Source of the DNA: a virus
Length of the DNA: 64,000 nucleotides
Strand: one strand, 5' to 3'
UHGV virus genome: UHGV-0010228
Shown: in pieces, positions 5,789-62,566 of the stretch
How positions within the stretch are numbered: position 1 is the stretch's first letter
Layout of the letters: every line of letters begins with the position of its first letter
Notes under the pieces: generated by a model
What the model saw: the letters and a program-made list of their open reading frames with translations, nothing else
Told to the model about the DNA's origin: nothing
Databases searched by the model: none
Made by a program: the position numbers and the translations under genes

Positions 5789-5820
5789 AAAAAGAGAAGG
5801 TTAATAACCTTCTCTTTTTA
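5789..5820. terminator. bidirectional hairpin terminator
   Basis: aaaagagaaggtt-aata-accttctcttttt. Confidence 0.7.
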
Positions 5821-12555: not shown

Positions 12556-13080
12556 ATGAATTATTCGGTTATAAAAAAACATGATGTAGCAAATGGTCCT
12601 GGAGTTAGAGTTTCACTTTATGTGTCTGGATGTTCGCATCATTGTAAAAATTGTTTTAATCCTGAGACTTGGGATAAAAATTATGGTTCAATATTTACTT
12701 TAAAAGAAAGAATTGAAATAATTGATGCATTAAGACCTGATTATATTGAAGGTCTAACAATATTAGGCGGAGATCCAATTGAACCTTATAATATTTCTGA
12801 AGTTATTAAACTTATAAAGAGTGTAAAGGTTGTGTATCCAGATAAATCTATTTGGTTATATACTGGATATAAATTTGAAGATCTATTATCTGAGAAATTA
12901 ATCCCCGATCGTAGTATTAGAGATGATATTACAAGATATATTGATGTTATTGTAGATGGAGAGTTCGAAGAAGAAAATAAAGTTATTGATTTAAGATTTA
13001 GGGGATCTACAAATCAAAGAATCATCGATGTTAAAAAGAGTGTTAAAGAAGATTCCATTATATTATGGACAGATAAATAA
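12556..13080 (+). CDS. nrdG: anaerobic ribonucleotide reductase activating protein (radical SAM)
   Basis: N-terminal GPGVRVSLYVSGCSHHCKNC (CxxxCxxC cluster motif), size 174 aa; RBS AGGAGG. Confidence 0.85.
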   Translation: MNYSVIKKHDVANGPGVRVSLYVSGCSHHCKNCFNPETWDKNYGSIFTLKERIEIIDALRPDYIEGLTILGGDPIEPYNISEVIKLIKSVKVVYPDKSIWLYTGYKFEDLLSEKLIPDRSIRDDITRYIDVIVDGEFEEENKVIDLRFRGSTNQRIIDVKKSVKEDSIILWTDK

Positions 13081-13111: not shown

Positions 13112-13654
13112 TTACATAATCCGCTTATATACAAAATTGTGATATAAGTGACCATTAGCATCAACTTTCTGAGGATCATCTGGATTTTCACACTCCCATC
13201 TTGGATCTTTATTAGTAATAAGATTCATAAATAGATTTACAAATGTATCACAAGCACCATTTACATTTGTAAATTTTGTTAAATAAACTTTTTCAGCATC
13301 ATTTGCGAATGCATCATATAATGTAGCCCCTCCAATAATCCAAACATCACCATATTCAAGATATGTGTCGATAAGATCTCTAAGAGCAGATTCATTGTTA
13401 ACAAATATTGACATAGTTTTCTCATCTTCAATTTGATTACAAGGCCTATATTTAGTAGATATAACAACATTCGTTCTATTCTTTAATGGTTTAGAACCTA
13501 TAGATTCCCAGGTTTTTCTACCCATAACTACTACTGATCCTGTAGTCATCATTTTAAAATATTTTAAATCTTCAGGTGATTTACAAAAGAGCTCACCTTT
13601 ATTACCAATACCGCCTATAACATTAGACGCTGCTATCATTTTAATTGTTCCCAT
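13112..13654 (-). CDS. folA: dihydrofolate reductase
   Basis: MIAASNVIGGIG...VVMGRKTWESIG...IIGGATLY signature of DHFR; RBS AAGGAG. Confidence 0.85.
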   Translation of the reverse strand: MGTIKMIAASNVIGGIGNKGELFCKSPEDLKYFKMMTTGSVVVMGRKTWESIGSKPLKNRTNVVISTKYRPCNQIEDEKTMSIFVNNESALRDLIDTYLEYGDVWIIGGATLYDAFANDAEKVYLTKFTNVNGACDTFVNLFMNLITNKDPRWECENPDDPQKVDANGHLYHNFVYKRIM

Positions 13655-13665
13655 TTTATTCTCCT

Positions 13666-14526
13666 TTATTCTGCCACTGGAATATTTTTTATCTGAGGGT
13701 TTGCCTCATAATTTGGAATATGAATATCATCTATAGTAAAATCATAAAAATCCTTTATATCAGGATTAATTAGTACTTGTGGCGCTGGATAAGTTTTTCT
13801 AGATATCATTTCTTTTACGATTGGTATGTGTCTATCATAAATATGTGCATCCGCAATACAATGAATTAGTGTACCAGCTTCATAACCAGTAACCTGTGCT
13901 AATAATTTTAATAATAACGAATACTGAAATACATTAAATGCATTTGCAACTAATACATCTTGTGATCTTTGATTTAATATAGCATTTAATTTATTTCCAG
14001 TAACATTAAATGTCATACTATAAGCGCATGGTGCTAAATTCATTTCATGTAGATCTTCAAAATTATATATATTAGTTATCATACGTCTACTCTGTGGAGT
14101 ATTCTTTAATTGCCATATGATATTATCAACCTGATCCATTTCTCCCTGTGGGAATAAATATTTCTTACCTAATTGATACCCATAGGCTTTACCTATAGTA
14201 CCATCTTCGCCTTCCCACTGATCCCATATATGATTTCCTAATTCCGAAACCTTATTGGATTTCTTCTGCCATATCCATAATAATTCTTGTGTTGCAGTTT
14301 TCCATGCGGTTGGTCTTAGTGTGCATAATGGCATTTCTTTACCAACATCATAGACATTTACTGCACCAAATATTTTTATAGTATGGGCTGGTGTTCCATC
14401 TTCCCATTTAGCTCTAACAACTGACCCTTCAGTTGAATATCCGTAATCAATAATATGATTACATAACGTAATTAAGCTATCATCATATTTACTCATTTTA
14501 TTAACCTCCTTAAAATAAGTATCCAT
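13666..14526 (-). CDS. thyA: thymidylate synthase (ThyA family)
   Basis: active-site LAPCA...NQRSQDVLVANAFNVFQYSLL matches TS motifs (catalytic Cys, substrate Asn retained); adjacent to DHFR as in T4 frd-td. Confidence 0.8.
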   Translation of the reverse strand: MDTYFKEVNKMSKYDDSLITLCNHIIDYGYSTEGSVVRAKWEDGTPAHTIKIFGAVNVYDVGKEMPLCTLRPTAWKTATQELLWIWQKKSNKVSELGNHIWDQWEGEDGTIGKAYGYQLGKKYLFPQGEMDQVDNIIWQLKNTPQSRRMITNIYNFEDLHEMNLAPCAYSMTFNVTGNKLNAILNQRSQDVLVANAFNVFQYSLLLKLLAQVTGYEAGTLIHCIADAHIYDRHIPIVKEMISRKTYPAPQVLINPDIKDFYDFTIDDIHIPNYEANPQIKNIPVAE

Positions 14527-14589
14527 ATAACTTTATAGATAAGTTAGATAAGGAATACTAAAAAACAAAATCGTAATTTTATAGAAAGG

Positions 14590-15810
14590 GTGGGTAAAGA
14601 CATGGATACTATCCCTGAAAATTTAAAAAAAGAACTATTAGCACTAGATGCTAAAACTATAACAGTTTCTCAGATATCATCTTTATTTGGTTATACAATG
14701 GATAAAGAATCTGGAGATCCTTTTAAAGTTAAACCTCCGAAATTTGATACTACATGGAAAATGCATTTAAATGCCGGAGAATATATCAACAAAGAAGCTG
14801 TAGATACTCATGTTGGAATATTTTTATTTAATAAACTTCTTATTGAGGGAAATGTTGAAGATGCAATTCCAAATGGTTACTATAATGAAGTAATGACCGC
14901 AAAGAAAATGAAAAAGTTACTTTCAATGATTGCAAATGCCTTATTAAATAATATTGTAACAATAAAGCCTCAAGTATATCATTTTCTAAGAAATTATGAA
15001 TTTTGGTCTCTTAAATTAGTATCTATATTCTCTGCATCATATACGCCTAAGTTATTAGATATGAACACTAAAATTGAGGCTGAAAAGAAGAGAGTTCTGA
15101 ATGATCTCGATTCAATGACTATGGTTGATATGGTAAATGCTGAAGATAAGTTAGTTGATATGGCTAACCAGGTAGTTGGAAACGATCCAGGTAAGGCAAT
15201 ATTTAATTCTGGAGCAAGAGGTTCATTTGAAAACGACTATAAGAACATGATGTTATCTGTAGGACCTACAATGAATCCAACTACAGGGGAATACGATTTT
15301 ATCAAATCTTCTTATTTAGGTGGTATTAGCAAAGAGGATTTAGCTGCCGCAGGAAATATAATTATTAATGCAGAATATCCTAAAGCAATTGGTACTGCTA
15401 AAGGTGGATACTTGGTAAAGCAGTTCTATGCAGTATTTCAGAATGTAGTCTTCGGAGAACCAGGCTCTGATTGTAAAACTAAAGAAGGACTTATAGTAAA
15501 GATTGATAATGATAATGTAAATGAGTATATCGATCAATATGCATTTGGTAAAAGTGGGCCAGTTTTAATTACTGAAGAAAATGCAAAGAATTGGATTGGT
15601 AGAACTATAAAAATTAGATCACCGATGTTTTGTACTGCAGAGCATATTTGTAATAAGTGTGCTGGAGAGAGATTTTATAAATTAGGAATTAGAAATGCAG
15701 GATTAACTGCAATAAATATTGGTTCTAAAATCTTAAATGCCGGAATGAAAAACCGTCACTCTCTTAAAATTAAACTCGATACGGTTGATATTAATAAGGT
15801 GCTAAAATAG
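14590..15810 (+). CDS. multisubunit RNA polymerase beta-prime subunit, C-terminal half (copy A)
   Basis: SGARGS..., AIGTAKGGYLVKQFYAVFQNVV...DCKT (bridge helix region F) and CNKCAGERF...GLTAINIGSKI...RHS (trigger loop region G), compared with E. coli RpoC as recalled from memory. Confidence 0.75.
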   Translation: MGKDMDTIPENLKKELLALDAKTITVSQISSLFGYTMDKESGDPFKVKPPKFDTTWKMHLNAGEYINKEAVDTHVGIFLFNKLLIEGNVEDAIPNGYYNEVMTAKKMKKLLSMIANALLNNIVTIKPQVYHFLRNYEFWSLKLVSIFSASYTPKLLDMNTKIEAEKKRVLNDLDSMTMVDMVNAEDKLVDMANQVVGNDPGKAIFNSGARGSFENDYKNMMLSVGPTMNPTTGEYDFIKSSYLGGISKEDLAAAGNIIINAEYPKAIGTAKGGYLVKQFYAVFQNVVFGEPGSDCKTKEGLIVKIDNDNVNEYIDQYAFGKSGPVLITEENAKNWIGRTIKIRSPMFCTAEHICNKCAGERFYKLGIRNAGLTAINIGSKILNAGMKNRHSLKIKLDTVDINKVLK

Positions 15811-15821
15811 GAGGTTTAATT

Positions 15822-16007
15822 ATGATAAAAAATGATTCATTAAAGGATATGATGTTTCAAACATCAGCATTCGCACAACTATGTGAAAGATCACGAAATA
15901 AGCAGAATCGGCCATTATCAAATGGATCTACCAGAGTACAAGAATCAACAGAGGCTATTAATAATTTAATAGGTCATTGCATTAAGTATTCAAAAAAATA
16001 TATTTAA
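15822..16007 (+). CDS. small hypothetical protein
   Basis: 61-aa ORF with RBS GGAGG 7 nt upstream. Confidence 0.4.
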   Translation: MIKNDSLKDMMFQTSAFAQLCERSRNKQNRPLSNGSTRVQESTEAINNLIGHCIKYSKKYI

Positions 16008-16010
16008 TAA

Positions 16011-16042
16011 ATAGGATATGAACTTTAAAGTTCATATCCTAT
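16011..16042. terminator. bidirectional hairpin terminator
   Basis: ataggatatgaac-tttaaa-gttcatatcctat between convergent genes. Confidence 0.7.
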
Positions 16043-16049
16043 AATATTT

Positions 16050-18065
16050 TTATACATATTTAGCTAATACAGGGGCATACATTGTATCGAGATGTGATGG
16101 GGCACTCTTCTTATATAATTCAGTAGATAAGATTTGTCTCTTTAAGAATCCGTATGGCATACTAACTAATGCACTTGGATGATACTGTAAAGCAGTATCA
16201 AGTCTTAATATTTGATAATCATTAGGATCTCCATTAGCACTAAAATCTGGAAATTCTAATATATTAGATTTCTTTCTTAAAAGTCCTCTAATGATTAATT
16301 CACCATGAACTAAATCATATTTCTGACCCATACTTATTAATGATTCTGCAAATTTCTGACACATCTCGCTAACAGTTCTTACTCCCATATGCTCGTTGGT
16401 ATTTAAGAGTTTCTTAAATATTTCAATAGGTTCTGTCAGCTCTTTATTCTTAACCTCAACTAAGAATAAAGACATTGTTTCATCAAAATTCTCTAATGAT
16501 ATAGGAGTAGATTTATCACGAAGCTTTTTATATTGATCAATAATCTGATCGTTGAGATATAACTTAGCTTCACTTTCTTCATATATATGATATATCTCAT
16601 TATTAGCTGCATCTTGTATTTTAAATCCATATGTATAATAGAAAATTTTATCGTCTAATTCTTCTTCTATTACATCATCTAATACAATATACAAATCAGC
16701 ATCAAGATCTGAATCTTCTTTAAGACTCATTTCAGATGATTCTAATTCAAATAATTCATCAAATCCTTTACTGAATTTAATCTGATTAGAATGTGTAGTC
16801 TGAGAATGCTTTGTTGATAATACACCTTGCTGTGCTGGCTCTGATTCTTTAAGTGCAGCAATTGCACCTACACTAAACAAACTTGAATTAATATCAAATA
16901 ATTTACCATAGCAGTATTTACAAATGCCATCTTTACCACAGCATGTTGCCGGTGATTTAAACCTAACAATCTTACCAATAAGATCTTTATCTTTCTTATA
17001 ATCAACGCATTTTAAATGACCATGACTATCATAATAGAATCGACCATTTAATAATGATAAGAAATTGTCATCTAATATATGATAATCAACCGTTGCAACA
17101 CTATTACACATCTCACCTGACTGTGATAATATACCTGATGAAGTTGAAACCTGACATAATTTCTTAGCGAATGCACCCGGAATTCCCATTCCCTGCTTAA
17201 CAGCAATTAATGCTTTTCTACCTGACAGTGCATTAATATAGAATAATGATGGCTTATATAATCCGTCTAATAAGAATGATCCATTTATCATTACCGGAAT
17301 TACGTTGCCTGATAAGTCAGCTTTAAGTCCTATCTTAATCATAAACTCTTTTAACTGTGCAGGTTTTATTCCAGCACCAGATGCGTATGAAGATCTAAAA
17401 TCATTATCTTTACCAGGTTCTGCAGGTAAATCATTCTTCATTATATCAATTAATCTTGAAGTACGTCTACTTAACTCATCTTCAATCTCATTAGGCTCAA
17501 GAGTTTCATCAACATCTTTATACATTATATCATGAACTTCAGGTATACGCTTTTCTAAATCATATATGTTATGAATTGACACACCGTTACCAATCAATAA
17601 ACAAAAAGCATGAGCTATAGCAATGATTGAATAATATATATCATCAATCATTGTATTCTTTGATGCAAAGTCATCATCATTTATTGGTAGTAACTTTTCA
17701 TTTATATATTCTAATAAAGTTATTGAACTGAATTTAGTAAAATCAAATATATATGATTCATCTAATAATTCTACTTTATCCATATATATAAATGGTTTCC
17801 ACAATATTAAGTTAGATAGTAAATGACGAAGTTCCATAGTTTTAAATTCTTTATCTTCAGAATGGAATTTATAATGAACTAATCTACTTCTAATTTCCTT
17901 GTACTCAAACCCATATTTGAGTATATCTAATAGATCCTGAAAGATTACATTGTAAGTTTTATTGGATTCCAATATTTCTTCAATAATCAGAAAATGCTCA
18001 TCGTTATAAATTGCATCTAATTCTTCTGGAGTTTTCTTTGGATGCCCATTAAAGTCAATTTTCAT
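16050..18065 (-). CDS. multisubunit RNA polymerase beta-prime subunit, C-terminal half (copy B, paralogue)
   Basis: SGAGIKPAQLKEF...GRKALIAVKQGMGIPGAFAKKL (bridge helix) and CKYCYGKLF...GAIAALKESEPAQQGVLSTKHS (trigger loop, cf E. coli CAHCYGRDLARG...GEPGTQLTMRTFH); start at ATG 18065 with RBS GGGAGG. Confidence 0.75.
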   Translation of the reverse strand: MKIDFNGHPKKTPEELDAIYNDEHFLIIEEILESNKTYNVIFQDLLDILKYGFEYKEIRSRLVHYKFHSEDKEFKTMELRHLLSNLILWKPFIYMDKVELLDESYIFDFTKFSSITLLEYINEKLLPINDDDFASKNTMIDDIYYSIIAIAHAFCLLIGNGVSIHNIYDLEKRIPEVHDIMYKDVDETLEPNEIEDELSRRTSRLIDIMKNDLPAEPGKDNDFRSSYASGAGIKPAQLKEFMIKIGLKADLSGNVIPVMINGSFLLDGLYKPSLFYINALSGRKALIAVKQGMGIPGAFAKKLCQVSTSSGILSQSGEMCNSVATVDYHILDDNFLSLLNGRFYYDSHGHLKCVDYKKDKDLIGKIVRFKSPATCCGKDGICKYCYGKLFDINSSLFSVGAIAALKESEPAQQGVLSTKHSQTTHSNQIKFSKGFDELFELESSEMSLKEDSDLDADLYIVLDDVIEEELDDKIFYYTYGFKIQDAANNEIYHIYEESEAKLYLNDQIIDQYKKLRDKSTPISLENFDETMSLFLVEVKNKELTEPIEIFKKLLNTNEHMGVRTVSEMCQKFAESLISMGQKYDLVHGELIIRGLLRKKSNILEFPDFSANGDPNDYQILRLDTALQYHPSALVSMPYGFLKRQILSTELYKKSAPSHLDTMYAPVLAKYV

Positions 18066-18316
18066 TTTTCTTTTTCCTCCCAGCAAATAATAACATCATC
18101 ACTTCTATCATCAGTATTATTAGTATACAATACAACATTATATTTACATTTATCTTTTAATGATAAATCCTCTATGGGATATACATTAACACAATCATAA
18201 AAAGCACCATTACCGGGAATATTTGGCTGATTATTATAATATTCCATTTCAACAGTATAAGTTAATTGTGAATACGATAAACTCGTAAACAGTGTAAATA
18301 ATAATAAAGTTTTCAT
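18062..18316 (-). CDS. small secreted protein (signal peptide)
   Basis: MKTLLLFTLFTSLSYSQ hydrophobic N-terminus; RBS GAGGA; stop overlaps RNAP gene ATG (ATGA). Confidence 0.45.
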   Translation of the reverse strand: MKTLLLFTLFTSLSYSQLTYTVEMEYYNNQPNIPGNGAFYDCVNVYPIEDLSLKDKCKYNVVLYTNNTDDRSDDVIICWEEKEK

Positions 18317-18341
18317 ATTATTGTCCTCAATTGTCATGATA

Positions 18342-18377
18342 AAAGCGATATACTATCAATTGATAGTATATCGCTTT
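18342..18377. terminator. 36-bp perfect palindrome terminator
   Basis: aaagcgatatactatcaa-ttgatagtatatcgcttt followed by T-rich tract. Confidence 0.7.
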
Positions 18378-18402
18378 GTTTTTGTTATTTTAAGATTCTA
18401 GG

Positions 18403-19302
18403 TTATTCAATTACAACTTTACCATCTTTCCAATCAACTTTCTTACCAAGAGCTTCGGCAATCTGTCTGATTGAGCAATAATTGGTACCATTTCCTTTGA
18501 AGCCTTTAATCTTCATATCTTTGCCATTAACACGAACATTAACTTCTCCGACATCGATAATCGGTGTACTGCCGGATGATGTGACACTTAAGCCAAGACC
18601 TTCACCGATTGGTCTGACCGCAAGATAGTTGGATCCCTCCTTCATAATACCCTTGACTGTAACTTCTTTACCAAGTAATATTATTTTACGATCTTCTACC
18701 ACTTCGTCATCCACCTCCTTTGTTGGTGTTGCTGATGTCTTTCCATTATATGCATCTGCAAGTTTCTTTTTGAACGCTTTCCAATTTGCTTCGCCTGCTG
18801 CAGTGTAGCACATTGGCTCCGGACATCTCTTTGCAGTTACATCATAATGTCTATAAACGTTTTCTAATGGAATATTATATTTTTTCATTAAATATACTCC
18901 CAACTCAATCGCATTTGCTTGAGTTTCTTCAGGAATATAATAATGCCCTTTACCTACGACTGGATTTGGAGTTGTTGATCTAGATACCATTTCAATAGAT
19001 ATTGAATTAGTATTGGTAATTTTACCTTTCATCTTACCGATACCCTTATCACCAACTGAATATCCAACATTCGTATCAGGTACACAATTGTATACAGTCT
19101 TACTATTATCAACACAGTAATGTGCAGAAGCTGCTCTAGGACTATTCTTAAAGTAATTTGCATTACCTTTAGCTGTTGCATTCTTTCCAGAAGCAGTGGT
19201 TCCATTAGCAGTATAATGATAAATCAGATACTTTGGCGTTCCTCTTTGTCCGCCATAATATTTAGCTCTTATTGAGGAGTCTATCTTTAGTGTGAGTGCC
19301 AT
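18403..19302 (-). CDS. endolysin: N-acetylmuramoyl-L-alanine amidase (Amidase_2/PGRP) with Cu_amine_oxidN1-type cell-wall-binding repeats
   Basis: YHYTA..HYCVD amidase_2 motifs; two C-terminal repeats ending KVDWKDGKVVIE typical of Cu_amine_oxidN1 domains of Clostridia/Bacilli; RBS AGGAGG. Confidence 0.8.
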   Translation of the reverse strand: MALTLKIDSSIRAKYYGGQRGTPKYLIYHYTANGTTASGKNATAKGNANYFKNSPRAASAHYCVDNSKTVYNCVPDTNVGYSVGDKGIGKMKGKITNTNSISIEMVSRSTTPNPVVGKGHYYIPEETQANAIELGVYLMKKYNIPLENVYRHYDVTAKRCPEPMCYTAAGEANWKAFKKKLADAYNGKTSATPTKEVDDEVVEDRKIILLGKEVTVKGIMKEGSNYLAVRPIGEGLGLSVTSSGSTPIIDVGEVNVRVNGKDMKIKGFKGNGTNYCSIRQIAEALGKKVDWKDGKVVIE

Positions 19303-19326
19303 GTCAATCCTCCTTTCATAAAATAT

Positions 19327-19356
19327 AGGTTAATGTAGTATATACTACATTAACCT
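19327..19356. terminator. hairpin terminator
   Basis: aggttaatgtagta-tat-actacattaacct. Confidence 0.65.
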
Positions 19357-19368
19357 AATTGTTAGTTA

Positions 19369-20274
19369 TTATTCATCTTCATCTCTCACATACCATAATA
19401 AAGCTTTCATTAATGTATCAACATTTCTATCTACAACTTCATCCATTTTCTCAGGATCATCACAGAATTCCATATCGATTACATCTATCATATATCCAGC
19501 TTTATCGGCATAATGCAATAATAAAGCAAAATCATCTTCAGCATATCGCATCTCATCAAGCTTTGCATATTCCGGAGAATTTTCTATTGTATATTCCCCA
19601 AATGGAAGATACTTCCACATATTAGATACTATATTCATATACGAATCATTTGATTCATGCAGATCTTTATTCTCTTTAGTATCTAAGGTGTTTTTATCAT
19701 CTGGAAATCTTAAATAGAAATTCATCTGATATCCTGGAATATCTTTTAGCATACTTGGTTCAATAAGAATTTGGCTCCTTAAATATTCTATGAGATACAT
19801 ATAGATATTTTCAAGTTCATCCGGATTCTTTTGCTGCTCTATATAGAAGGAATTTACAATCTTAGCACCCTGATATAAGAAATTAGATAAAAATGATCTA
19901 TCATTAACCATATAGTGTGCAATTTTATAATCAGAAGATTCAACTCTAAGACGTCTATCTAAGACATATAATAATGAAGAAGTTATATAATCAAGTTCTG
20001 TTGGATCAGTATTATTTAATTCCCCATTAAGATATTGCTTAATCATTTTACCCATAGAAGATTCATAGTCAGGATAATGTTGATATATAGCAACATCTTC
20101 AATTCCTTTTTCTAAAATTGCATTTCTTATTTCATCAGGAAGTCTATCTATAATAGTTCTATTAGCAGCATTTAATCTTTCAACTATTCTCTTAGCAATA
20201 GTTGATTTACCAACACCATCTGCACCTTCGATATTAATTACAATATGTAATAATTCTTTTGATTCATTTTCCAT
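19369..20274 (-). CDS. tmk: thymidylate kinase-like dNMP kinase
   Basis: P-loop IEGADGVGKST resembling TMK IEGxxGxGKST; 301 aa with C-terminal extension. Confidence 0.7.
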   Translation of the reverse strand: MENESKELLHIVINIEGADGVGKSTIAKRIVERLNAANRTIIDRLPDEIRNAILEKGIEDVAIYQHYPDYESSMGKMIKQYLNGELNNTDPTELDYITSSLLYVLDRRLRVESSDYKIAHYMVNDRSFLSNFLYQGAKIVNSFYIEQQKNPDELENIYMYLIEYLRSQILIEPSMLKDIPGYQMNFYLRFPDDKNTLDTKENKDLHESNDSYMNIVSNMWKYLPFGEYTIENSPEYAKLDEMRYAEDDFALLLHYADKAGYMIDVIDMEFCDDPEKMDEVVDRNVDTLMKALLWYVRDEDE

Positions 20275-20279
20275 ATCAT

Positions 20280-21986
20280 CTATTCCTCTCCGCTCATTGA
20301 AGTTAATATATTTGTATCTTCTTTTTCAACAATCTCAATTTTTTCATATTTAAGATATTCCTTAAAAGGATCGTCTTTATATTTAGATTCGATCCAAGAA
20401 TCAAATGATTTCTTCTTGGTTTTCTTAGTTTCAACTTCAAATAAATACTGATTATGACACGGTTCACGATCTGGAGTAAAGTAGAATCTATCATATAATT
20501 TAGCAAATGGAACTAAACTTCCAGACATACCAACATCTGAATTTGATGATACATTTAAATCTAATATTCCAACCATAGATGGATGAAGATATCTATATTT
20601 AACAGATATTTTCTTATTGTTAGAATCACCAATAGACTGGAAGCCTTTTCCTGAATATGCGATATCCATTAAGAAATTCATATCATTTACAATATCATCA
20701 GTCTTAACTAAGTCATTTAAATTTCTCATACCACTAATAATAATATCGGAAGGGAAATTAAATAACTCCATTAAGGTATCCATTGTATTCATACGTGATT
20801 TACCACGTTTTTCAATGAATTTATTAATGTTTTCATTAATCTTCTTACCTAATGAAGATAATACGATATATTCATTACGTCTAATACGTTTATTGCACAT
20901 ATCAATATTTGAATGAGCTCTTAACTCTTCAAAATTAGTCATTATCCAATACATCAAATAATAGATATTCTGTTTATAATATAATGGTAATCTTAGATTA
21001 TTAATTGTAACTTGATCCAATAATCTTTCAATCATCAATAATGTGGTATAACCTTTTTCTCTGAAAGAAAGAATATTTTTATTTTTTGCAGTACCAACCA
21101 TTCCAATTCTGCAGATCCAATATTCTTTATCTTCAATATTATGAGAGCTTACTGGAAAATCTTTATTTCTAGTACTACAAAGCATAGTTACAAATGCTCT
21201 GACCATGTTATATTTTTCAAACATATCAGATTTTACTTTTACATATAATTCATCAAGCTGGAAAATCTCATATTTATCTAATTCAGATTCTTTATAATCT
21301 GAATCAATGAATACAATACCTTCCATATCAAAGAATTTTAGTGTGTTTGCTAATCCCATTTTAGAGCTATAAATTAATATTGGATTTATAAATCTTGGTT
21401 TACTTTTAGCGCCAGGTTTTCTAGTTTTAGTATTAAGTGCATATGAATAAGAAGGTGTAACGTGTGTAGTACCAGTTACATCTTCTATCATACGATTTTT
21501 ATTCTGATATATAACAATTGGCATCCTAGATTTGATAGTAGTTTTACCTCTTTGAGAATAGGTTGAAGCATCTAGTAACTGCCATATTGCTTTCATTTTC
21601 TTACCATTATTATAATAAAAACCATCAATCTCTATTGGGTATAATATATGCTTCTTAATAATTTTCTTATTAAGATTAGTCTCTACTTTTATTGTAAAGA
21701 TTATCTCTCCATAAAAATTATCATTCATATATTTAAATTTAGGAAATTCAAGATTTGATAGATCTTTCTTCTTATAATTGATATTTATTGTATGCATATT
21801 AATATCAACTTCATCAGGTCTATCAACCACTTCTATATTAAGAATTTCGATATTTTCTATAGCCTCTAATTCTTTCATTGAGGTGATTATGAAGTCTTCT
21901 AATGAATCATCCTGATTACCCACAATAATATCATCATTAAATTCTTCGGTGTATTTATTTGGATATAATCCTACATAGTCTATCAT
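20280..21986 (-). CDS. multisubunit RNA polymerase beta-subunit fragment (putative)
   Basis: KYRYLHPSMVGILDLNVSSNSDVGMSGSLVPF resembles beta motif [23 protein letters not shown]; start at ATG 21986 with RBS AAGGAGG (not longest ORF). Confidence 0.55.
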   Translation of the reverse strand: MIDYVGLYPNKYTEEFNDDIIVGNQDDSLEDFIITSMKELEAIENIEILNIEVVDRPDEVDINMHTININYKKKDLSNLEFPKFKYMNDNFYGEIIFTIKVETNLNKKIIKKHILYPIEIDGFYYNNGKKMKAIWQLLDASTYSQRGKTTIKSRMPIVIYQNKNRMIEDVTGTTHVTPSYSYALNTKTRKPGAKSKPRFINPILIYSSKMGLANTLKFFDMEGIVFIDSDYKESELDKYEIFQLDELYVKVKSDMFEKYNMVRAFVTMLCSTRNKDFPVSSHNIEDKEYWICRIGMVGTAKNKNILSFREKGYTTLLMIERLLDQVTINNLRLPLYYKQNIYYLMYWIMTNFEELRAHSNIDMCNKRIRRNEYIVLSSLGKKINENINKFIEKRGKSRMNTMDTLMELFNFPSDIIISGMRNLNDLVKTDDIVNDMNFLMDIAYSGKGFQSIGDSNNKKISVKYRYLHPSMVGILDLNVSSNSDVGMSGSLVPFAKLYDRFYFTPDREPCHNQYLFEVETKKTKKKSFDSWIESKYKDDPFKEYLKYEKIEIVEKEDTNILTSMSGEE

Positions 21987-22024
21987 TTTTGTGTGTACCT
22001 CCTTAAAATAATTATATAATTTTT

Positions 22025-22059
22025 GAGAGAGCCATAGCATAATACACTATGGCTCTCTC
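22025..22059. terminator. hairpin terminator (13-bp arms)
   Basis: gagagagccatag-cataatacac-tatggctctctc. Confidence 0.65.
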
Positions 22060-22068
22060 TTAATATAA

Positions 22069-22542
22069 TTAATAATTCATTTCAGTAATTGTTAAATACT
22101 GCTTATCATTATCAACGTCACACTTAATATCATGATTTACTATGTTTACAATGTCAAAATCAAATGTAATATTATCTAATGATATCTTAAACGAATATCT
22201 TCCACTAGGATATTCATTTATTTCTGCACTATCTAACTGATTTAGAAGTTCATGCTTTCCAATATTCAGTTTAAGTAGAGCAAATTTATATCCTAATAAG
22301 ATATCGAGCAATGATCCATTCGCAGTTTCATTAAATATATCAGTCTTAGCTAATTCATTTAAGACAACTTCAACTGCAGATAATTCATCTAATGTAAATA
22401 TATCAAAATGTAGATCTAATTTTAATTCTTCATTCGGATCTACCTTTGAGACTTCGTATGCCTTATACAAGCATACGAAGTCTAATTTCTTATTTTCTTT
22501 ACGAATTCTATCTTCAATAACTTCTCTTAATTCTTTACTCAT
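22069..22542 (-). CDS. hypothetical protein
   Basis: 157-aa ORF overlapping upstream stop (ATGA-type coupling). Confidence 0.5.
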   Translation of the reverse strand: MSKELREVIEDRIRKENKKLDFVCLYKAYEVSKVDPNEELKLDLHFDIFTLDELSAVEVVLNELAKTDIFNETANGSLLDILLGYKFALLKLNIGKHELLNQLDSAEINEYPSGRYSFKISLDNITFDFDIVNIVNHDIKCDVDNDKQYLTITEMNY

Positions 22543-23288
22543 TAGTATTCATCATCTCCCTCATATACAGCATCAAATTTAATTGTTAATTTAGCAACTA
22601 AACCTGGATTCATATTAATCACGATCTCACCCTGATCATTATATCTAGCATGAATTTCAATAACATCATTGAAATTGACTGTCTGCATAGTACCGTCAGG
22701 ATCATTCTTAAGGTCTATTACTAATTTCTTAAATAAATTCTCAAAGAATACATATGTTATTCCCAATACTGCATATTTATCCTTATCAGCTAACACGATT
22801 GAGAAATTCTGCGATAACGCATATCTTGCAAATGTATCTACATTCTCATAGAATTTATCAATATCTGGAAGTCCTGTAAGAAAATACTCACTTGCTGGCA
22901 TTAACTCATATTCTTTTTCATTTTCTGGGATATCAATATCATCAATTATCTTCTGAGCTCCACTTCCAGCTCCAAATACAATATTGATATTTCCTTCCTT
23001 TTCAGCTTTAGGAGTTTTTCTATACGAAACACTAAGACTGAATAAATTGAAGAAGTTAATTGCTTTAATATTATTATTAGCACTAGAATTAAATCCAAGT
23101 GCCGTAATAATACTTTCAATTACCTGATTAGCAATTGTATTACAACGCCAATCCATATTGGTCATAAGACCAAATCTAGCTTCTACATCACCTTTGGTCT
23201 TACGATCAACTGCTAACAGAAAATCTCTGTCTCTAGGCTCCTGTGGAACTACTAACACCTGCTGATTTGAAAAATCGAATGAATTCAT
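22542..23288 (-). CDS. hypothetical acidic protein (possibly sliding-clamp-like; speculative)
   Basis: 248 aa, acidic C-terminus, size/position reminiscent of phage clamp; no motif confirmed. Confidence 0.45.
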   Translation of the reverse strand: MNSFDFSNQQVLVVPQEPRDRDFLLAVDRKTKGDVEARFGLMTNMDWRCNTIANQVIESIITALGFNSSANNNIKAINFFNLFSLSVSYRKTPKAEKEGNINIVFGAGSGAQKIIDDIDIPENEKEYELMPASEYFLTGLPDIDKFYENVDTFARYALSQNFSIVLADKDKYAVLGITYVFFENLFKKLVIDLKNDPDGTMQTVNFNDVIEIHARYNDQGEIVINMNPGLVAKLTIKFDAVYEGDDEY

Positions 23289-23308
23289 TTTATTTCCTCC
23301 TTTATCAT

Positions 23309-23321
23309 GTGAATAATATAT
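23309..23321 (-). promoter_or_regulatory. promoter-like motif ATATATTATTC
   Basis: 21 nt upstream of ATG 23288, immediately after ligase stop. Confidence 0.5.
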
Positions 23322-25897: not shown

Positions 25898-25930
25898 AGA
25901 GAAGAATTCATCATTATTGAATTCTTCTCT
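25898..25930. terminator. hairpin 13-bp perfect arms (contains EcoRI-like gaattc twice)
   Basis: agagaagaattca-tcattat-tgaattcttctct, between promoter motif and RBS. Confidence 0.55.
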
Positions 25931-25963: not shown

Positions 25964-26410
25964 TTACTTATATCCAGTTGACCCAAAACCGCCTCTATTA
26001 TTATTGCTGAGTTTTTCAACGATCTTAAACTTTGTGCGTGGCATCTTTTCAAGAATTTCGCACTGACAAATTCTTTCATCAAATGGGATTACTGTGTCCC
26101 TGAGGGCAAGAACTCCAAATTTTATAATATCACCATCACCACAATACGATTCGTCAATAACCCCACTACTAACCATAATAATTCCATATTTTTTATAAGT
26201 ACTACTTCTAGGATATAATTGCATTCTACATCCATTAGGAAGTCTTACCGATATTCCAAGTGATATTTCATAATAATCGCCCTTCTTAAGCACTAGATCA
26301 TGCTCAGCACAACGTAAGTCTATCATATCACCACGTCTAGTCTGCTCGATCGGTGTAATTCCTTCATGATACTTAATATCAACATAATATGTCTTATTGA
26401 TTGAACTCAT
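25964..26410 (-). CDS. dut: dUTP diphosphatase
   Basis: dUTPase motifs RSS..Y, GVIDESY, C-terminal RGGFGSTG; RBS AAGGAGG. Confidence 0.85.
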   Translation of the reverse strand: MSSINKTYYVDIKYHEGITPIEQTRRGDMIDLRCAEHDLVLKKGDYYEISLGISVRLPNGCRMQLYPRSSTYKKYGIIMVSSGVIDESYCGDGDIIKFGVLALRDTVIPFDERICQCEILEKMPRTKFKIVEKLSNNNRGGFGSTGYK

Positions 26411-35476: not shown

Positions 35477-35512
35477 ATTACGGTATATTCTATATATAGA
35501 ATATACCGTAAT
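35477..35512. terminator. 36-bp perfect palindrome terminator
   Basis: attacggtatattctatat-atagaatataccgtaat. Confidence 0.65.
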
Positions 35513-36078: not shown

Positions 36079-36113
36079 AAAGATATTACGGATAATTTCT
36101 CCGTAATATCTTT
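36079..36113. terminator. palindromic terminator sharing gatattacgg core with 35477 element
   Basis: aaagatattacgga-taatttc-tccgtaatatcttt. Confidence 0.65.
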
Positions 36114-36907: not shown

Positions 36908-36920
36908 TTTTATAAAAAAA

Positions 36921-36952
36921 TTTAGAATATCGCAATATTGCGATATTCTAAA
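36921..36952. terminator. 32-bp perfect palindrome terminator
   Basis: tttagaatatcgcaat-attgcgatattctaaa. Confidence 0.65.
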
Positions 36953-36970
36953 TTTCTATAACTTGATTTT

Positions 36971-37840: not shown

Positions 37841-38156
37841 CTTTTATACCCTCGGTTTCCCGATATTTTAGTAGGGGAATAGACTATACAATACTATTTC
37901 TGATTATTTTTATGACAAAATCGACCTTTAGAATCTCGTGCCTTAAAACACAGAAATAGTTCTCTATTATAGTCGTTGAACGTCCATCCTATATTTCTAT
38001 AGATGTTTCGCTGCGTTTGATTACCCAATCCTTAATGATTTTACCATACCGATTCCGTTACTAATCGCCACTATCTATATCACTATGATAGCTTGGTTAT
38101 TAAGGCTCTAAGGGACTCCCCGCAGTTTAAGAGATTTAACGTGGACTATCTCGTTA
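37841..38156 (-). ncRNA. group I self-splicing intron (ORF-less, 316 nt) in nrdD
   Basis: P1: exon GUGGAU pairs intron GUCCAC with U.G at splice site; P10: exon-2 AUCUUG pairs CGAGAU; P element AACUGCGGGGAG, Q CGCAGCG, R GUUCAACGACUAUAA, S GUAUAGUCUAUUCC in canonical order; GNRA-loop hairpin UCGG-GAAA-CCGA; terminal G before exon 2. Confidence 0.75.
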
Positions 38157-40248
38157 ATCCACACGTGCGGCGTACCACTGTAAGTTTAGTATGATCACGA
38201 CATCCGCAATTAGGGCATTCCCAGTCTCCATCTTTTATGACTATCTCACCATCAAATCCGCAATTACCACAGTAATCGGATTTGGTGTTAAATTCTCCAT
38301 ATAATATATGATCGTATATGAACTTAATTAAAGCTTCTACTGCAGATAAATTATTTTTCATATTAGGTATTTCTACATATGAAATACAACCACCTGTACT
38401 TATATTCTGATATGGAGCTTCAAATTCAAATTTACTAAATGCATCTATTTCTTCTCTAACATCAATATGATAAGAATTTGTATAATACCCTTTATCGGTG
38501 ATATCTTTTATATCACCGAACTTTTCTTTATCTATTTTTGCAAATCTATAGCATAAAGATTCAGATGGTGTACCATATAATGCATATCCTAAATTCTCTT
38601 CTTTATTCCATTCTACAACTTTATCTTTCATATACTGTAAAACTTTAAGGGTAAATTCTTTTCCTTCTTTACTAGTATGTGATTTACCTAACATTGCTAT
38701 TGATAATTCATATACACCGATATAACCCAGAGATAATGTTGAATATCCACCAACTAATAAATCATCAATAGTATCTTCTGCATTCAACCTAGCTAATGCA
38801 CCATACATCCAATGTATAGGTGATGACTTAGCTTTAGTACCTCTGAGTGCTTTATATCTCAAATATAATGCTCTATGGCATAATTCAAGTCGTTCATCAA
38901 ATAACTTCCAGAATTTATCCATATCACCATTAGCAATTATACCTATCTGTGGTAAGTTAATACTTACTACACCCTTATTAAATCTACCTTCAAATTTATA
39001 ATTTCCATTTTCATCTTTCCATGGTGATAGTGCAGATCTACATCCCATAGGTGAGAACACATTTCCTTCATAATTCTGTCTCATTATCTTAGCACTGATA
39101 TAGTCCGGATACATTCTCTTAGCTGTACATTTAGCCGCTAAGTGTGTGAGATAATCATATTTACCACCTGTAAGATTATTATGCTCATCAAGCACATAGA
39201 TAAGCTTAGGAAATGCTGGTGTTATATATACACCATATTCATTCTTAATACCCTGATACCGCTGATTAAGAATAGCTTCAATTATCTGTGCAACTTCTTC
39301 AATATATGGATCATCTGGTTTAAGATTTAAGAAAATTGTAATAAATGGTGATTGACCATTTGTAGTCATTAATGAATTTAACTGATAATCAATAACCTGG
39401 ACTCCAGCTTTTAATTCTTTATCAACCATATCATCAACTATAGACTTTATAGTTTCTTCATCAATTTTACCATGTGATGATTCTCGAATTTGCTTATCAA
39501 ATTTCTCTCTTGATTTTCTAAGATACTTTCCCAAGTGTCTAATATCTACAGACTGACCACCATATTGTGAAGATGCAACTGCAGCAATTATCTGAGTCAT
39601 AATGGTACACGCAACTCTAAATGATTTAGGACTTTCAATCATCTTACCATTCATTACAGTACCATTATCAAGCATATCTCCTATATTTATGAGACAGCAG
39701 TTGATTATTGGTTGTAGAAAATAATCTGCATCATGGAAATGAATGATACCATCTTCATGAGCTTTTACAATATCTTTAGGTAATAAAAGTCTCTTAGTTA
39801 AATCTTTAGAAACTTCACCTGCTATTAAATCTCTCTGAGTAGAGGCTAAATATGCATCTTTATTTGAGTTTTCTTCCATAACATATTTATTATTATATCT
39901 AACTAATGATAATATCGACTCATCTGTTGTATTCTGCTCACGAACTAAATTTCTAGAATATCTATACGTAATATATTCTTTAGCAACAGGATATTCTTCA
40001 TTTACTTCATATCTAAGAATATTATTGATTACCTGCTCTTGAATATATTCAACATCAGCAATAAATTCAGGATCATCTGCAAGATAGGAATCAATATTAG
40101 CTTCTACATTAGAAGCTATTCTCTGAATTAATTTTTCGCTAAATCTAGCATTTTCAGGAACCTGTAAATTTGCTTTACCAATAGCGCTTGCTATCTTTTC
40201 TTTGTTGAAATCAACAATCTGACCATTTCTTTTACGAACTTTAATCAT
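38157..40248 (-). CDS. nrdD: anaerobic ribonucleoside-triphosphate reductase NrdD, exon 1
   Basis: N-terminal ATP-cone (VRKRNGQIVDFNKEKIASAI), C-terminal Zn-ribbon CGNCGF...CPNCGC, then RRTCG glycyl-radical motif interrupted; unspliced ORF would end 3 residues after the radical Gly. Confidence 0.85.
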
Positions 40249-60896: not shown

Positions 60897-60960
60897 ATAT
60901 AATACCTCCTTATATTATATAGTATTAATATAATGTATAATAAAAAAAAACAAGTGAATG
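60897..60960 (-). promoter_or_regulatory. duplicated promoter/5'UTR cassette copy A (sigmaA-like TTGTTT-N15/16-TATATT, T-tract UP element)
   Basis: about 65 bp near-identical to 62502-62566; upstream 26-bp palindrome gtgaatgactaat-attagtcattcac (60951-60976). Confidence 0.5.
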
Positions 60961-62501: not shown

Positions 62502-62566
62502 TATAATACCTCCTTATATTATATATAATATTAATATAATGTATAATAAAAAAAAAACAAGTGAAT
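62502..62566 (-). promoter_or_regulatory. duplicated promoter/5'UTR cassette copy B
   Basis: near-identical to 60897-60960. Confidence 0.5.

What the first reader, a model, noticed from the sequence alone, without database searches (positions are those of the whole stretch)
14590..21986. Split multisubunit RNA polymerase: two paralogous beta-prime C-terminal halves in divergent orientation plus a beta fragment
Both the 14590-15810 (+) and 16050-18065 (-) products carry the beta-prime bridge helix (SGARGS / SGAGIK ... GGYLVKQF / GRKALIAVKQ) and the trigger loop (CxxC(A/Y)G ... IGS / EP ... RHS). They are only distantly related to each other, so they look like two separate polymerase sets.

The 20280-21986 product resembles the beta segment around CPIETPEG.

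This is the hallmark of phiKZ- and AR9-type jumbo phages, which encode a virion and a non-virion RNAP with split subunits. Here it occurs in a phage whose endolysin points to a Clostridia or Bacillus-type host. The other RNAP pieces (beta-prime N-halves and remaining beta pieces) should lie outside this window.

A small signal-peptide protein gene (18062-18316) is translationally coupled to one beta-prime gene.
Basis: partly seen in the sequence, partly recalled or inferred. Interest (0 to 1): 0.7.

Follow-up and report, generated by a model that had tools for sequence, protein, structure and literature searches.

The report
Jumbo-phage split RNA polymerase subunit genes
Three genes here encode pieces of the two phage-made, multi-subunit RNA polymerases typical of AR9/phiKZ-type giant phages, in an uncultured relative that probably infects anaerobic Clostridia, so this is a new member of a well-known system rather than a new kind of thing.

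Summary

- 14590-15810 (+) is the virion-RNAP beta' piece, orthologous to AR9 gp264 (31% identity, E 1e-52). A profile of its family hits bacterial beta' at E 1.5e-19.
- 16050-18065 (-) is the non-virion-RNAP beta' C-terminal half (AR9 gp154, PDB 7S00_D, E 3e-48).
- 20280-21986 (-) is the non-virion beta N-terminal half (AR9 gp105, 7S00_c, E 2e-36).

Corrections:
- The two beta' genes are convergent, not divergent.
- The virion piece is the beta' middle fragment. It ends at the trigger-loop His, and a third known beta' piece (AR9 gp125 / SPN3US gp244 type) is missing from the window.
- None of the three pieces carries a double-psi beta-barrel.
- AR9 itself infects Bacillus, so a Firmicute host is not new.

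Added evidence: AR9's early promoter (ATATATTAT-N6-G) heads the beta-N operon. AR9's late promoter (AACA-N6-TA) precedes the virion beta' gene, here and in five relatives.

Odd points:
- The non-virion beta'C gene has no early promoter.
- The phage encodes ThyA, DHFR, a thymidylate kinase-like protein and dUTPase, so thymine DNA is inferred, unlike uracil-DNA AR9.

Verdict: new member of a known kind, modest interest.

The parts
14564..14575 (+). Late-type (AR9 nvRNAP-type) promoter motif AACAAAATCGTA. The predicted +1 (A at 14575) is 15 nt before the GTG of the virion beta' gene.
   Evidence: The same AACA-(6N)-TA lies upstream of the orthologous gene in L007, L008, L009, L011 and AR9 g264. 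The motif occurs in 10 of 41 upstream regions, against 0-3 for spacing or sequence variants and 2.1 +/- 1.4 in shuffles. Promoter function is inferred from the AR9 consensus (PMC5312081).
14590..15810 (+). Virion RNAP beta' middle piece (406 aa, GTG start). Features: region F SGARGS 15208-15225; bridge helix 15325-15453; Zn-site Cys295/348/354/357 within 15469-15666; trigger-loop helix 1 with His390 at 15682-15762.
   Evidence: phrog_2962 E 9e-59. AR9 gp264 31% identity, E 1e-52, annotated virion RNAP subunit. Family profile against PDB: bacterial beta' E 1.5e-19. Maps to E. coli beta' 667-936. AlphaFold model pLDDT 81.5 with a 36-residue helix at 248-283; Foldseek top hits are all beta' (E 7e-12). 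Invariant residues.
15822..16007 (+). 61-aa ORF 12 nt after the beta' stop, with a GGAGG ribosome site. Function unknown.
   Evidence: A 55-aa ORF holds the same position in L009/L011, with only marginal similarity (E 0.015). No family hit. It is too short to be the 240-250-aa third beta' piece, and phmmer with AR9 gp125 finds nothing in the window.
16011..16042 (.). Perfect 14-bp hairpin between the two convergent beta' genes. Probably a bidirectional terminator.
16050..18065 (-). Non-virion RNAP beta' C-terminal half (671 aa). Features: SGAGIK 17364-17381; bridge helix 17154-17246; Zn Cys cluster 16905-17117; trigger-loop His about 16805-16814; insertion domain in the trigger loop; second trigger helix about 16389-16433; then the C-terminal conserved regions.
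   Evidence: PDB 7S00_D (AR9 gp154) E 3.3e-48 over residues 85-667. 7OGP_D (phiKZ gp74) E 1.6e-8. Bacterial beta' hits are weaker. phrog_3015 E 2.6e-47. 167 homologues, the full-length ones mostly 664-683 aa (a few to 715). Compared with a 99%-identical relative: 112 synonymous and 6 non-synonymous codon changes.
18062..18316 (-). 84-aa protein with a hydrophobic N-terminus. Its TGA stop overlaps the ATG of the beta'C gene (ATGA).
   Evidence: 9 synonymous and 4 non-synonymous changes against L013, so it is probably a real gene. Absent from the 69% relative L011; the 53% relative L012 has an unrelated 146-aa ORF overlapping the start instead. No family hit.
18342..18380 (-). 16-bp perfect hairpin (18342-18377) after the endolysin gene, overlapped by a late-type motif AACAAAGCGATA (18369-18380). 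The predicted +1 of that motif lies in the 5' arm of the hairpin.
   Evidence: No early-type promoter here, unlike L011 and AR9 g154.
20280..21986 (-). Non-virion RNAP beta N-terminal half (568 aa). The fork-loop/'CPIETPEG'-equivalent segment is at 20505-20588. A clade-specific 60-aa C-terminal tail is at 20283-20465.
   Evidence: PDB 7S00_c (AR9 gp105) E 2.2e-36. phrog_2943 E 7e-20. Alignment with L011, L012 and AR9. Local alignment to E. coli beta 535-593.
22026..22058 (-). 12-bp hairpin without a U-tract, just upstream of the beta-N ribosome site. It contains the spurious upstream ATG at 22040.
22069..23288 (-). Two genes of unknown function (248 aa at 22542-23288; 157 aa at 22069-22542) that precede beta-N in the same early operon.
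   Evidence: No family hits. Genes of similar size sit between the ligase and beta-N genes in L011 and L012.
23306..23320 (-). Early-type (AR9 vRNAP-type) promoter TATATTATTCACATG. The predicted +1 G is at 23306. It is the only such site between 16000 and 23400.
   Evidence: PWM score 27.3 bits. The 15 sites in the window score 22-33 and the next best scores 13. 13 of 15 ATATATTAT-N6-G matches lie in intergenic DNA by the crude gene list. The same motif heads the same operon in L011 and L012. AR9 consensus AAATATATATTAT-(6N)-G (PMC5312081).
19326..19357 (.). 14-bp perfect hairpin that ends the beta-N/thymidylate-kinase-like unit, followed by TATTTTAT on the minus strand.

Best explanation
The window comes from an uncultured jumbo phage. 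Relatives sit on contigs of roughly 240-280 kb. Its transcription machinery is of the AR9/PBS1 (and more distantly phiKZ) type: two phage-encoded multisubunit RNA polymerases built from split beta and beta' chains.

What each gene is (shown):
- 14590-15810 encodes the middle third of the beta' chain of the virion polymerase: region F, bridge helix, second zinc site and the first arm of the trigger loop.
- 16050-18065 encodes the whole C-terminal half of the beta' chain of the non-virion polymerase: the same elements, plus a domain inserted in the trigger loop, the second trigger helix and the C-terminal regions.
- 20280-21986 encodes the N-terminal half of the non-virion beta chain.

How it works (inferred from AR9 and phiKZ):
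- The virion enzyme is packaged and injected with the DNA. It reads the AT-rich early promoters ATATATTAT-(6N)-G.
- One such promoter, at 23306-23320, drives an operon that includes the non-virion beta-N gene.
- The non-virion enzyme then assembles from early products together with a sigma-like fifth subunit. It reads AACA-(6N)-TA late promoters.
- One late promoter sits 15 nt before the virion beta' gene, so new virion polymerase is made late for packaging.

Shown: the homology, orthology and motif positions, and their conservation in relatives. Inferred: packaging, timing and promoter use.
For: Homology:
- PHROG families for jumbo-phage RNAP subunits: E 9e-59, 2.6e-47 and 7e-20.
- Solved AR9 nvRNAP chains D and c: E 3e-48 and 2e-36. 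phiKZ gp74: E 1.6e-8.
- AR9 gp264, the virion subunit: E 1e-52.
- A family profile of the 406-aa protein hits about 77 bacterial or plastid beta' chains, best E 1.5e-19.
- The predicted fold matches beta'.
- Mapping to E. coli beta' 667-936, with the four Zn cysteines and the trigger-loop His invariant.

Orthology to different enzymes:
- Each window protein's best AR9 hit is a different annotated subunit, and the two cross-hit only weakly.

Phage context:
- The window shares SbcC, SbcD-like phosphoesterase, DnaB, RecD, SF2 helicase, NAD-ligase, tape measure and virion proteins with AR9.

Regulation:
- 15 early-motif sites are sharply separated from background.
- The late motif is specific for 6-nt spacing.
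- Both motifs are conserved at the orthologous positions in relatives and in AR9.

Intactness:
- More than 100 full-length homologues exist for each beta' piece.
- Purifying selection is strong.
Against: - The other subunits were not seen: beta'N with the NADFDGD catalytic loop, betaC, the sigma-like gp226/gp68 homologue, and virion betaN, betaC and beta'C. So a complete pair of enzymes is inferred, not shown, for this phage.
- Virion packaging of the 406-aa protein rests only on orthology and on a late-type promoter.
- The non-virion beta'C gene has no early-type promoter. It has only a late-type motif inside a hairpin. This does not fit the simple early/late scheme unless there is read-through from 23306.
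- AR9's late promoter recognition requires uracil in the template strand (PMC9209446), whereas this phage appears to make thymine DNA. So the late-promoter mechanism cannot be identical.
Confidence: 0.9

Rival explanations
1. Only one functional phage polymerase exists. One of the two beta'-like genes is a decaying or redundant paralogue with no role.
For: Only three of at least ten expected subunit genes are visible in the window. The two beta' pieces share the same core motifs.
Against: Both genes are intact. Both have more than 100 full-length homologues of constant length. All catalytic-site-lining residues are kept: bridge helix, Zn cysteines and trigger-loop His. The non-virion gene shows 112 synonymous against 6 non-synonymous changes. 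Each gene is orthologous to a different, experimentally characterised AR9 subunit. They carry different promoter types.
Confidence: 0.03
2. The genes are cellular. The window would be a bacterial chromosome or prophage-free region with split rpoC/rpoB genes, as in cyanobacteria, plastids or archaea.
For: The beta' split after the catalytic barrel coincides with the cyanobacterial split. The best single-sequence PDB hit of the 406-aa protein is a cyanobacterial beta' C-half (8SYI_Z, E 0.0019).
Against: - Identity to any cellular beta' is below 25% and needs profiles to detect.
- The closest named relatives are all jumbo phages.
- The window is full of phage genes syntenic with AR9: tape measure, virion proteins, endolysin and a replication module.
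- There are no tRNA or Rfam hits.
- AR9-type promoter motifs punctuate the sequence.
Confidence: 0.01
3. The system is as described, but the non-virion beta'C gene is a late-only gene. The early copy of the non-virion enzyme would use another beta'C source, such as a second paralogue elsewhere in the genome or a packaged protein.
For: No early motif within 5 kb upstream. A late-type motif lies directly upstream of the coupled 84-aa ORF. The arrangement is identical in the 99% relative L013.
Against: AR9 g154 and the 69% relative L011 have an early promoter at this place, so early expression is the ancestral state. Read-through from 23306 cannot be excluded: hairpin 22026-22058 has no U-tract and hairpin 18342-18377 has a poor one on the minus strand. 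No second beta'C copy is present in the window.
Confidence: 0.06

Closest known systems
Bacillus phage AR9 / PBS1 (Takahashivirus): non-virion RNAP (gp270, gp154, gp105, gp089, gp226; PDB 7S00/7S01/7UM0/7UM1) and virion RNAP (gp145, gp264, gp125, gp189, gp078)
   Same: - The subunit split pattern is the same for the three pieces seen. Best hits are gp264 at 31%, gp154 at 29% and gp105 at 28% identity.
- A domain is inserted in the trigger loop of the non-virion beta'C.
- The early promoter (ATATATTAT-(6N)-G) and late promoter (AACA-(6N)-TA) consensus are the same, and the late motif precedes the virion beta' gene in both (PMC5312081).
- The replication and repair gene set is shared.
   Different: - Protein identity is only about 30%, and there is no DNA similarity to any phage record searched.
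- Gene order differs. Here the virion and non-virion beta' genes are neighbours, whereas in AR9 they are 90 kb apart.
- No introns or homing endonucleases interrupt these genes, whereas several other AR9 RNAP subunit genes are interrupted.
- This phage has ThyA, DHFR, a Tmk-like kinase, dUTPase and anaerobic RNR. AR9 has uracil DNA, an Ung inhibitor, class I RNR and none of the thymidylate genes.
- Beta-N has an extra 60-aa tail, and AR9 gp105 Lys375 is Thr here.
- There is no early promoter before beta'C.
Pseudomonas phage phiKZ and relatives (Chimalliviridae): nvRNAP gp55, gp74, gp71-73, gp123, gp68 (PDB 7OGP/7OGR); Salmonella phage SPN3US virion RNAP with beta' in three pieces (gp42 is the middle piece, gp244 the C-terminal piece)
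   Same: The two-polymerase strategy is the same. The beta' split follows the catalytic barrel in both. The virion beta' middle piece is about 400-430 aa and stops in the trigger loop (PMC5105663, PMC7598289). The non-virion beta'C matches phiKZ gp74 at E 1.6e-8.
   Different: The relationship is much more distant than to AR9. The phiKZ late promoter is TATG rather than AACA-(6N)-TA (PMC5312081). phiKZ-type phages build a chimallin nucleus, and no chimallin was seen in this 64-kb window. That is not informative for the whole genome.
Cyanobacterial and plastid split beta' (gamma/beta', rpoC1/rpoC2)
   Same: The split is at the same place, after the double-psi beta-barrel. The cyanobacterial beta' C-half is the best single-sequence structural hit of the 406-aa protein (8SYI_Z).
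   Different: The cellular enzymes have alpha and omega subunits and sigma factors, and the C-half is a single chain of about 1300 aa. Here the chain is split again at the trigger-loop tip and is far shorter.

Membership tests
Bacterial-type multisubunit RNAP beta' (RpoC), C-terminal part | Region F (SGARG), bridge helix, second Zn site (four Cys) and trigger-loop helix 1 with the catalytic His, in this order | tested here: met
   Both proteins carry them. For the 406-aa protein they align to E. coli beta' 667-936: C295/C348/C354/C357 correspond to C814/C888/C895/C898, and H390 to H936. For the 671-aa protein see the alignments to 7S00_D and to bacterial beta'. The fold search returns only beta' chains.
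Bacterial-type multisubunit RNAP beta' (RpoC), C-terminal part | Statistically significant profile match to RpoC | tested here: met
   Profile of 30 family members against PDB: 77 beta' sequences at E <= 0.001, best 1.5e-19. Pfam alone fails: RNA_pol_Rpb1_4 scores E 0.22, below its cut-off.
Bacterial-type multisubunit RNAP beta' (RpoC), C-terminal part | Double-psi beta-barrel with the NADFDGD Mg-binding loop | tested here: not met
   The pieces start downstream of it: the alignments begin at about E. coli residue 667, and the barrel loop is at 458-464. This is expected, because in these phages the barrel is on the separate beta'N subunit, which is not in the window. It is not an argument against family membership of the fragments.
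AR9/phiKZ-type non-virion RNAP | beta'C subunit orthologous to AR9 gp154 / phiKZ gp74, with an insertion domain in the trigger loop | tested here: met
   7S00_D E 3.3e-48, aligned over residues 85-667 including the inserted region. 7OGP_D E 1.6e-8. The best AR9 match of the window ORF is gp154, and gp154 finds it back among the window ORFs.
AR9/phiKZ-type non-virion RNAP | betaN subunit orthologous to AR9 gp105 | tested here: met
   7S00_c E 2.2e-36. Alignment from residue 1 to the end of gp105.
AR9/phiKZ-type non-virion RNAP | Complete core (beta'N, betaC) plus the sigma-like fifth subunit (AR9 gp226 / phiKZ gp68) | not testable with these tools
   None of these is in the window. A search with AR9 gp226 found only AR9-like proteins and two distant ones on an unrelated contig. 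The rest of this phage's genome is not available.
AR9/phiKZ-type non-virion RNAP | Subunit genes are early genes behind a virion-RNAP promoter | tested here: inconclusive
   Beta-N lies in an operon headed by an early motif (23306-23320), conserved in L011 and L012. Beta'C has none, although AR9 g154 and L011 do. These are motifs only; there are no transcript data.
AR9/phiKZ-type virion RNAP | beta' middle piece orthologous to AR9 gp264 / SPN3US gp42: about 400-430 aa, ending in the trigger loop | tested here: met
   AR9 gp264 E 1e-52 with 99% coverage. phrog_2962 covers profile positions 73-432 of 433. The protein ends 16 residues after the trigger-loop His.
AR9/phiKZ-type virion RNAP | Protein is present in the virion and injected | not testable with these tools
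   Needs proteomics of purified particles. It is supported only indirectly, by orthology to a virion protein of AR9 and by a conserved late-type promoter.
AR9/phiKZ-type virion RNAP | Third beta' piece (AR9 gp125 / SPN3US gp244 / phiKZ gp176) and the beta pieces (AR9 gp189, gp078) | tested here: not met
   No homologue in the window by tblastn, blastp or phmmer. They are expected elsewhere in the genome. The 61-aa ORF after the beta' gene is too short and shows no similarity.

The most novel reading that the evidence does not exclude
This phage stands for a large, uncultured clade of roughly 240-280 kb phages, probably of anaerobic Clostridia. The clade is the thymine-DNA sister of the uracil-DNA AR9/PBS1 group and has kept both AR9 promoter consensus sequences. 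If so, its non-virion polymerase must recognise the template-strand element as 3'-TTGT-5'. AR9's enzyme strictly needs 3'-UUGU-5' and rejects thymine. The clade would then be a natural thymine-tolerant version of template-strand promoter recognition, and uracil dependence would be a later specialisation of the AR9 branch. The missing early promoter before beta'C would point to a rewired early/late switch in this particular lineage.
Probability: 0.45. Interest if true: 0.45.

Novelty: new member of a known kind. Interest (0 to 1): 0.25.

Why it matters
The two-polymerase, host-independent transcription strategy of jumbo phages is well described for phiKZ, AR9 and relatives. Finding it again is therefore not a surprise.

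The value here is in the placement:
- The genes come from a deep, uncultured branch. It is about 30% identical to AR9, with more than 100 metagenomic relatives at 40-70%.
- Its auxiliary genes point to an anaerobic Gram-positive host: anaerobic RNR, and an Amidase_2 endolysin with a copper-amine-oxidase-N cell-wall-binding type of domain. One relative is filed as a Lachnospiraceae MAG.
- The branch combines AR9-type polymerases and AR9-type promoter motifs with a full thymidylate pathway. That makes it a natural test case for how uracil-specific promoter reading evolved.
- It also supplies diverse sequences for the virion polymerase. No sequence relative of its beta' middle piece other than cellular beta' was found among solved structures.

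Tried and rejected
1. Pfam alone does not recognise any of the three proteins: the best hit is E 0.22 and beta-N has none. PHROGs, PDB sequences and a family profile were needed.
2. I suspected the 61-aa ORF after the virion beta' gene might be the missing C-terminal beta' piece, because by eye it resembles beta' region H. I rejected this. It has no Pfam or PHROG hit. The known piece is 240-250 aa. The positional counterpart in L009/L011 is barely similar. AR9 gp125 finds nothing.
3. The full AR9 early consensus AAATATATATTAT with 2 mismatches is not enriched in the window: 54 matches against 59 expected. Only the shorter core plus the +1 G and the intergenic position revealed the motif.
4. 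Sigma-70-type promoters are not enriched: 105 against 109 expected.
5. The search for the sigma-like subunit failed. AR9 gp226 retrieves only AR9-like proteins and two distant ones on a 22%-GC contig unrelated to the window. A gp226 profile finds nothing in the window or in the relatives' loci.
6. There is no near-identical DNA in the phage collection, and no relative of beta'C in IMG/VR by the pattern search.
7. A beta-N profile does not reach cellular beta in the PDB. The link to beta rests on the solved AR9 structure and on a local alignment around CPIETPEG.
8. There are no tRNA genes, introns or Rfam families in the window.

Full report
**What is there**

The window is AT-rich (about 29% G+C) and densely coding. 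In 14590-22040 the long ORFs are:
- 14590-15810 (+), 406 aa
- 16050-18086 (-), 678 aa from a TTG, or 671 aa from the ATG at 18065
- 18062-18337 (-), 84 aa from the ATG at 18316
- 18403-19302 (-), 299 aa
- 19369-20274 (-), 301 aa
- 20280-22040 (-), 586 aa, or 568 aa from the ATG at 21986

- 18065 is preceded by GGGAGGA, and the homologues are 666-678 aa.
- 21986 is preceded by AAGGAGG. The ATG at 22040 lies in the loop of a hairpin, and the alignment with AR9 gp105 starts at residue 1.

**Identity of the three proteins**

Pfam does not recognise them. The phage family library does:
- phrog_2962 'RNA polymerase beta subunit', E 9e-59, for the 406-aa protein
- phrog_3015, E 2.6e-47, for the 671-aa protein
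- phrog_2943, E 7e-20, for the 568-aa protein

Against solved structures:
- The 671-aa protein matches chain D of the AR9 non-virion RNAP (gp154, beta'C) at E 3.3e-48 over nearly its full length. It matches phiKZ gp74 at E 1.6e-8, followed by many bacterial beta' chains around the CxxCYG/trigger-loop segment.
- The 568-aa protein matches chain c of the same AR9 structure (gp105, betaN) at E 2.2e-36. The chain assignments are given in PMC9209446.
- The 406-aa protein has no close solved relative; the best hit is a cyanobacterial beta' C-half at E 0.0019.

In the phage records, the best match of the 406-aa protein is AR9 g264 at 31% identity and E 1e-52. That gene is annotated as a virion RNAP subunit.

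A profile of 30 family members hits 77 bacterial and plastid beta' sequences, best E 1.5e-19.
- It aligns to E. coli beta' 667-822 and 879-936.
- The four cysteines of the second zinc site and the trigger-loop histidine are invariant in the family.

An AlphaFold model (pLDDT 81.5) has a 36-residue helix at 248-283 (the bridge helix) and a helix at 370-387 (trigger helix 1). The model then becomes disordered. Foldseek returns only beta' chains, best E 7e-12.

**Two enzymes, not one**

The two beta' pieces are barely similar to each other: E 3e-4, 22% identity over 79 residues. Each has a different AR9 subunit as its best match. Searching back with those AR9 proteins recovers the same window ORFs, with only weak cross-hits between the two beta' pieces.

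Sokolova et al. (PMC7598289) and Thomas et al. (PMC5105663) show that the virion beta' of these phages is in three pieces.
- The 400-430-aa protein (SPN3US gp42, AR9 gp264) is the middle piece.
- A separate 240-250-aa protein (SPN3US gp244, AR9 gp125; PMC5312081) supplies the C-terminal regions.

This fits what is seen here. The 406-aa protein stops 16 residues after the trigger-loop histidine. That is at the loop tip, where E. coli carries SI3 and where AR9 gp154 and the window's 671-aa protein carry an inserted domain.

So 'two C-terminal halves' should read 'one middle fragment and one C-terminal half'. None of the three proteins contains a double-psi beta-barrel; the barrels are on beta'N and betaC.

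**The rest of the polymerases**

I fetched the whole AR9 genome and compared every window ORF with it. I also searched the window ORFs with AR9 gp125, gp089 and gp226 at permissive thresholds.

Only the three genes above are RNAP genes. The other shared genes are SbcC, an SbcD-like phosphoesterase, DnaB, RecD, an SF2 helicase, NAD-ligase, a tape-measure protein and virion proteins.

**Layout**

The two beta' genes are convergent, not divergent. Their 3' ends face each other across a perfect 14-bp hairpin at 16011-16042.

A 61-aa ORF with a strong ribosome site follows the virion beta' gene. A 55-aa ORF holds the same place in a 70% relative, but the two are hardly similar. Neither resembles any RNAP piece.

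The 84-aa ORF overlaps the beta'C start by ATGA.
- Against a 99%-identical relative it shows 9 synonymous and 4 non-synonymous changes, so it is probably a real gene.
- It is absent from the 69% relative. In the 53% relative an unrelated ORF replaces it.
- It is therefore a lineage-specific passenger, not part of the polymerase.

**Regulation**

AR9's virion polymerase reads AAATATATATTAT-(6N)-G, and its non-virion polymerase reads AACA-(6N)-TA/G (PMC5312081).

Early motif:
- The core ATATATTAT-(6N)-G occurs 15 times in the window.
- 13 of the 15 lie in intergenic DNA by my crude gene list. The other two lie in what is probably an over-extended ORF.
- A weight matrix separates 15 sites (22-33 bits) from everything else (at most 13 bits). 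Fourteen are on the minus strand, upstream of minus-strand genes.
- Only one lies in the finding's region, at 23306-23320. It heads the unit 248-aa gene, 157-aa gene, beta-N and thymidylate kinase-like gene, which ends at hairpin 19326-19357.
- The same motif heads the same unit in two relatives.

Late motif:
- AACA-(6N)-TA is found in 10 of 41 upstream regions.
- Spacing or sequence variants give 0-3, and shuffles give 2.1 +/- 1.4.
- It precedes all six plus-strand leader genes examined and the tape-measure gene.
- It sits 15 nt before the virion beta' gene. It is also found before the orthologous gene in four metagenomic relatives (36-44% G+C) and in AR9 itself.

This supports the virion and non-virion assignment independently of homology. 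All of it rests on motifs; no transcripts were seen.

**An inconsistency**

The non-virion beta'C gene has no early motif. The only motif upstream of the coupled 84-aa ORF is a late-type AACAAAGCGATA, whose predicted start lies inside the 5' arm of hairpin 18342-18377. AR9 g154 and the 69% relative do have an early motif at that place.

There are two readings:
- beta'C mRNA is made early by read-through from 23306, across hairpins that have poor U-tracts; or
- this lineage has rewired the switch.

I cannot decide between them.

**Host and DNA chemistry (noticed in passing)**

- The endolysin is Amidase_2 plus a copper-amine-oxidase-N domain.
- The phage carries anaerobic ribonucleotide reductase.
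- One relative's 257-kb contig is filed as a Lachnospiraceae MAG.
- It also encodes ThyA, DHFR, a thymidylate kinase-like protein and dUTPase. AR9 has none of these and has uracil DNA with an Ung inhibitor.

Thymine DNA is therefore likely. DHFR argues for a true thymidylate synthase rather than a hydroxymethylase; that argument is inference.

AR9's late-promoter reading requires uracil, because gp226 Val206 excludes the thymine methyl (PMC9209446). The gp226 homologue of this clade should therefore differ. I could not find it. In beta-N, the AR9 pocket residues Arg363, Lys375 and Asn382 correspond to Lys, Thr and Asn.

**Novelty**

No phage record has similar DNA, and protein identity to cultured phages is about 30%. 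The public protein collections, however, hold more than 100 relatives at 40-70% identity on contigs of up to about 240-280 kb.

The system itself is textbook for jumbo phages (PMC7598289, PMC13282480). This is a new member of a known kind. Interest is modest, and is raised slightly by the thymine/uracil question and the missing early promoter.

Noticed in passing
13112-14526 (-), 19369-20274 (-), 25964-26410 (-): DHFR, ThyA, a thymidylate kinase-like protein and dUTPase are all present, so the phage probably has thymine DNA. AR9, the closest cultured relative of its polymerases, has uracil DNA and none of these genes. Yet both AR9 promoter motifs are kept.
   Followed up: partly
16050-18380 (-): The non-virion beta'C gene lacks the early-type promoter found at the same place in AR9 and in a 69% relative. 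Only a late-type motif, inside a hairpin arm, lies upstream.
   Followed up: partly
whole window; e.g. 5789-5819, 35477-35512, 36079-36113, 36918-36955, 25898-25930: About 40 perfect hairpins with stems of 10-20 bp fill the intergenic DNA. Many sit directly upstream of an early-type promoter. In two cases (25898-25930 and 18342-18377) the predicted transcription start lies inside the 5' arm, so the new transcript could not form the full hairpin.
   Followed up: partly
12556-13080 (+) and 38146-40248 (-): The anaerobic ribonucleotide reductase activase (NrdG) and catalytic subunit (NrdD) are 25 kb apart on opposite strands. NrdG is behind a late-type motif and NrdD behind an early-type motif. 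Their presence points to an anaerobic host.
   Followed up: partly
47717-59680 (-): A single 3987-aa ORF. Its N-terminal 490 residues resemble the AR9 tape-measure protein g204, which is about half as long.
   Followed up: no
20283-20465 (-): Beta-N carries a 60-residue lysine/glutamate-rich C-terminal tail that AR9 gp105 lacks. The tail is conserved in two relatives (motif YEKIEIVEKE).
   Followed up: partly
22069-23288 (-): Two genes with no detectable family (248 aa and 157 aa) lie between the DNA ligase and beta-N genes, in the same early unit. Genes of similar size hold the same place in relatives L011 and L012.
   Followed up: no
60912-60939 and 62516-62545 (-): Two nearly identical AT-rich upstream cassettes (T-run, ATTATACATTATATTAATA, ribosome site) precede two small minus-strand genes about 1.6 kb apart. 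This suggests a local duplication.
   Followed up: no
L011:9889-10000 and L012:9568-10008: The segment just upstream of the beta'C gene is variable among relatives. It holds an early promoter plus hairpin in L011, an unrelated overlapping 146-aa ORF in L012, and the 84-aa ORF here.
   Followed up: partly
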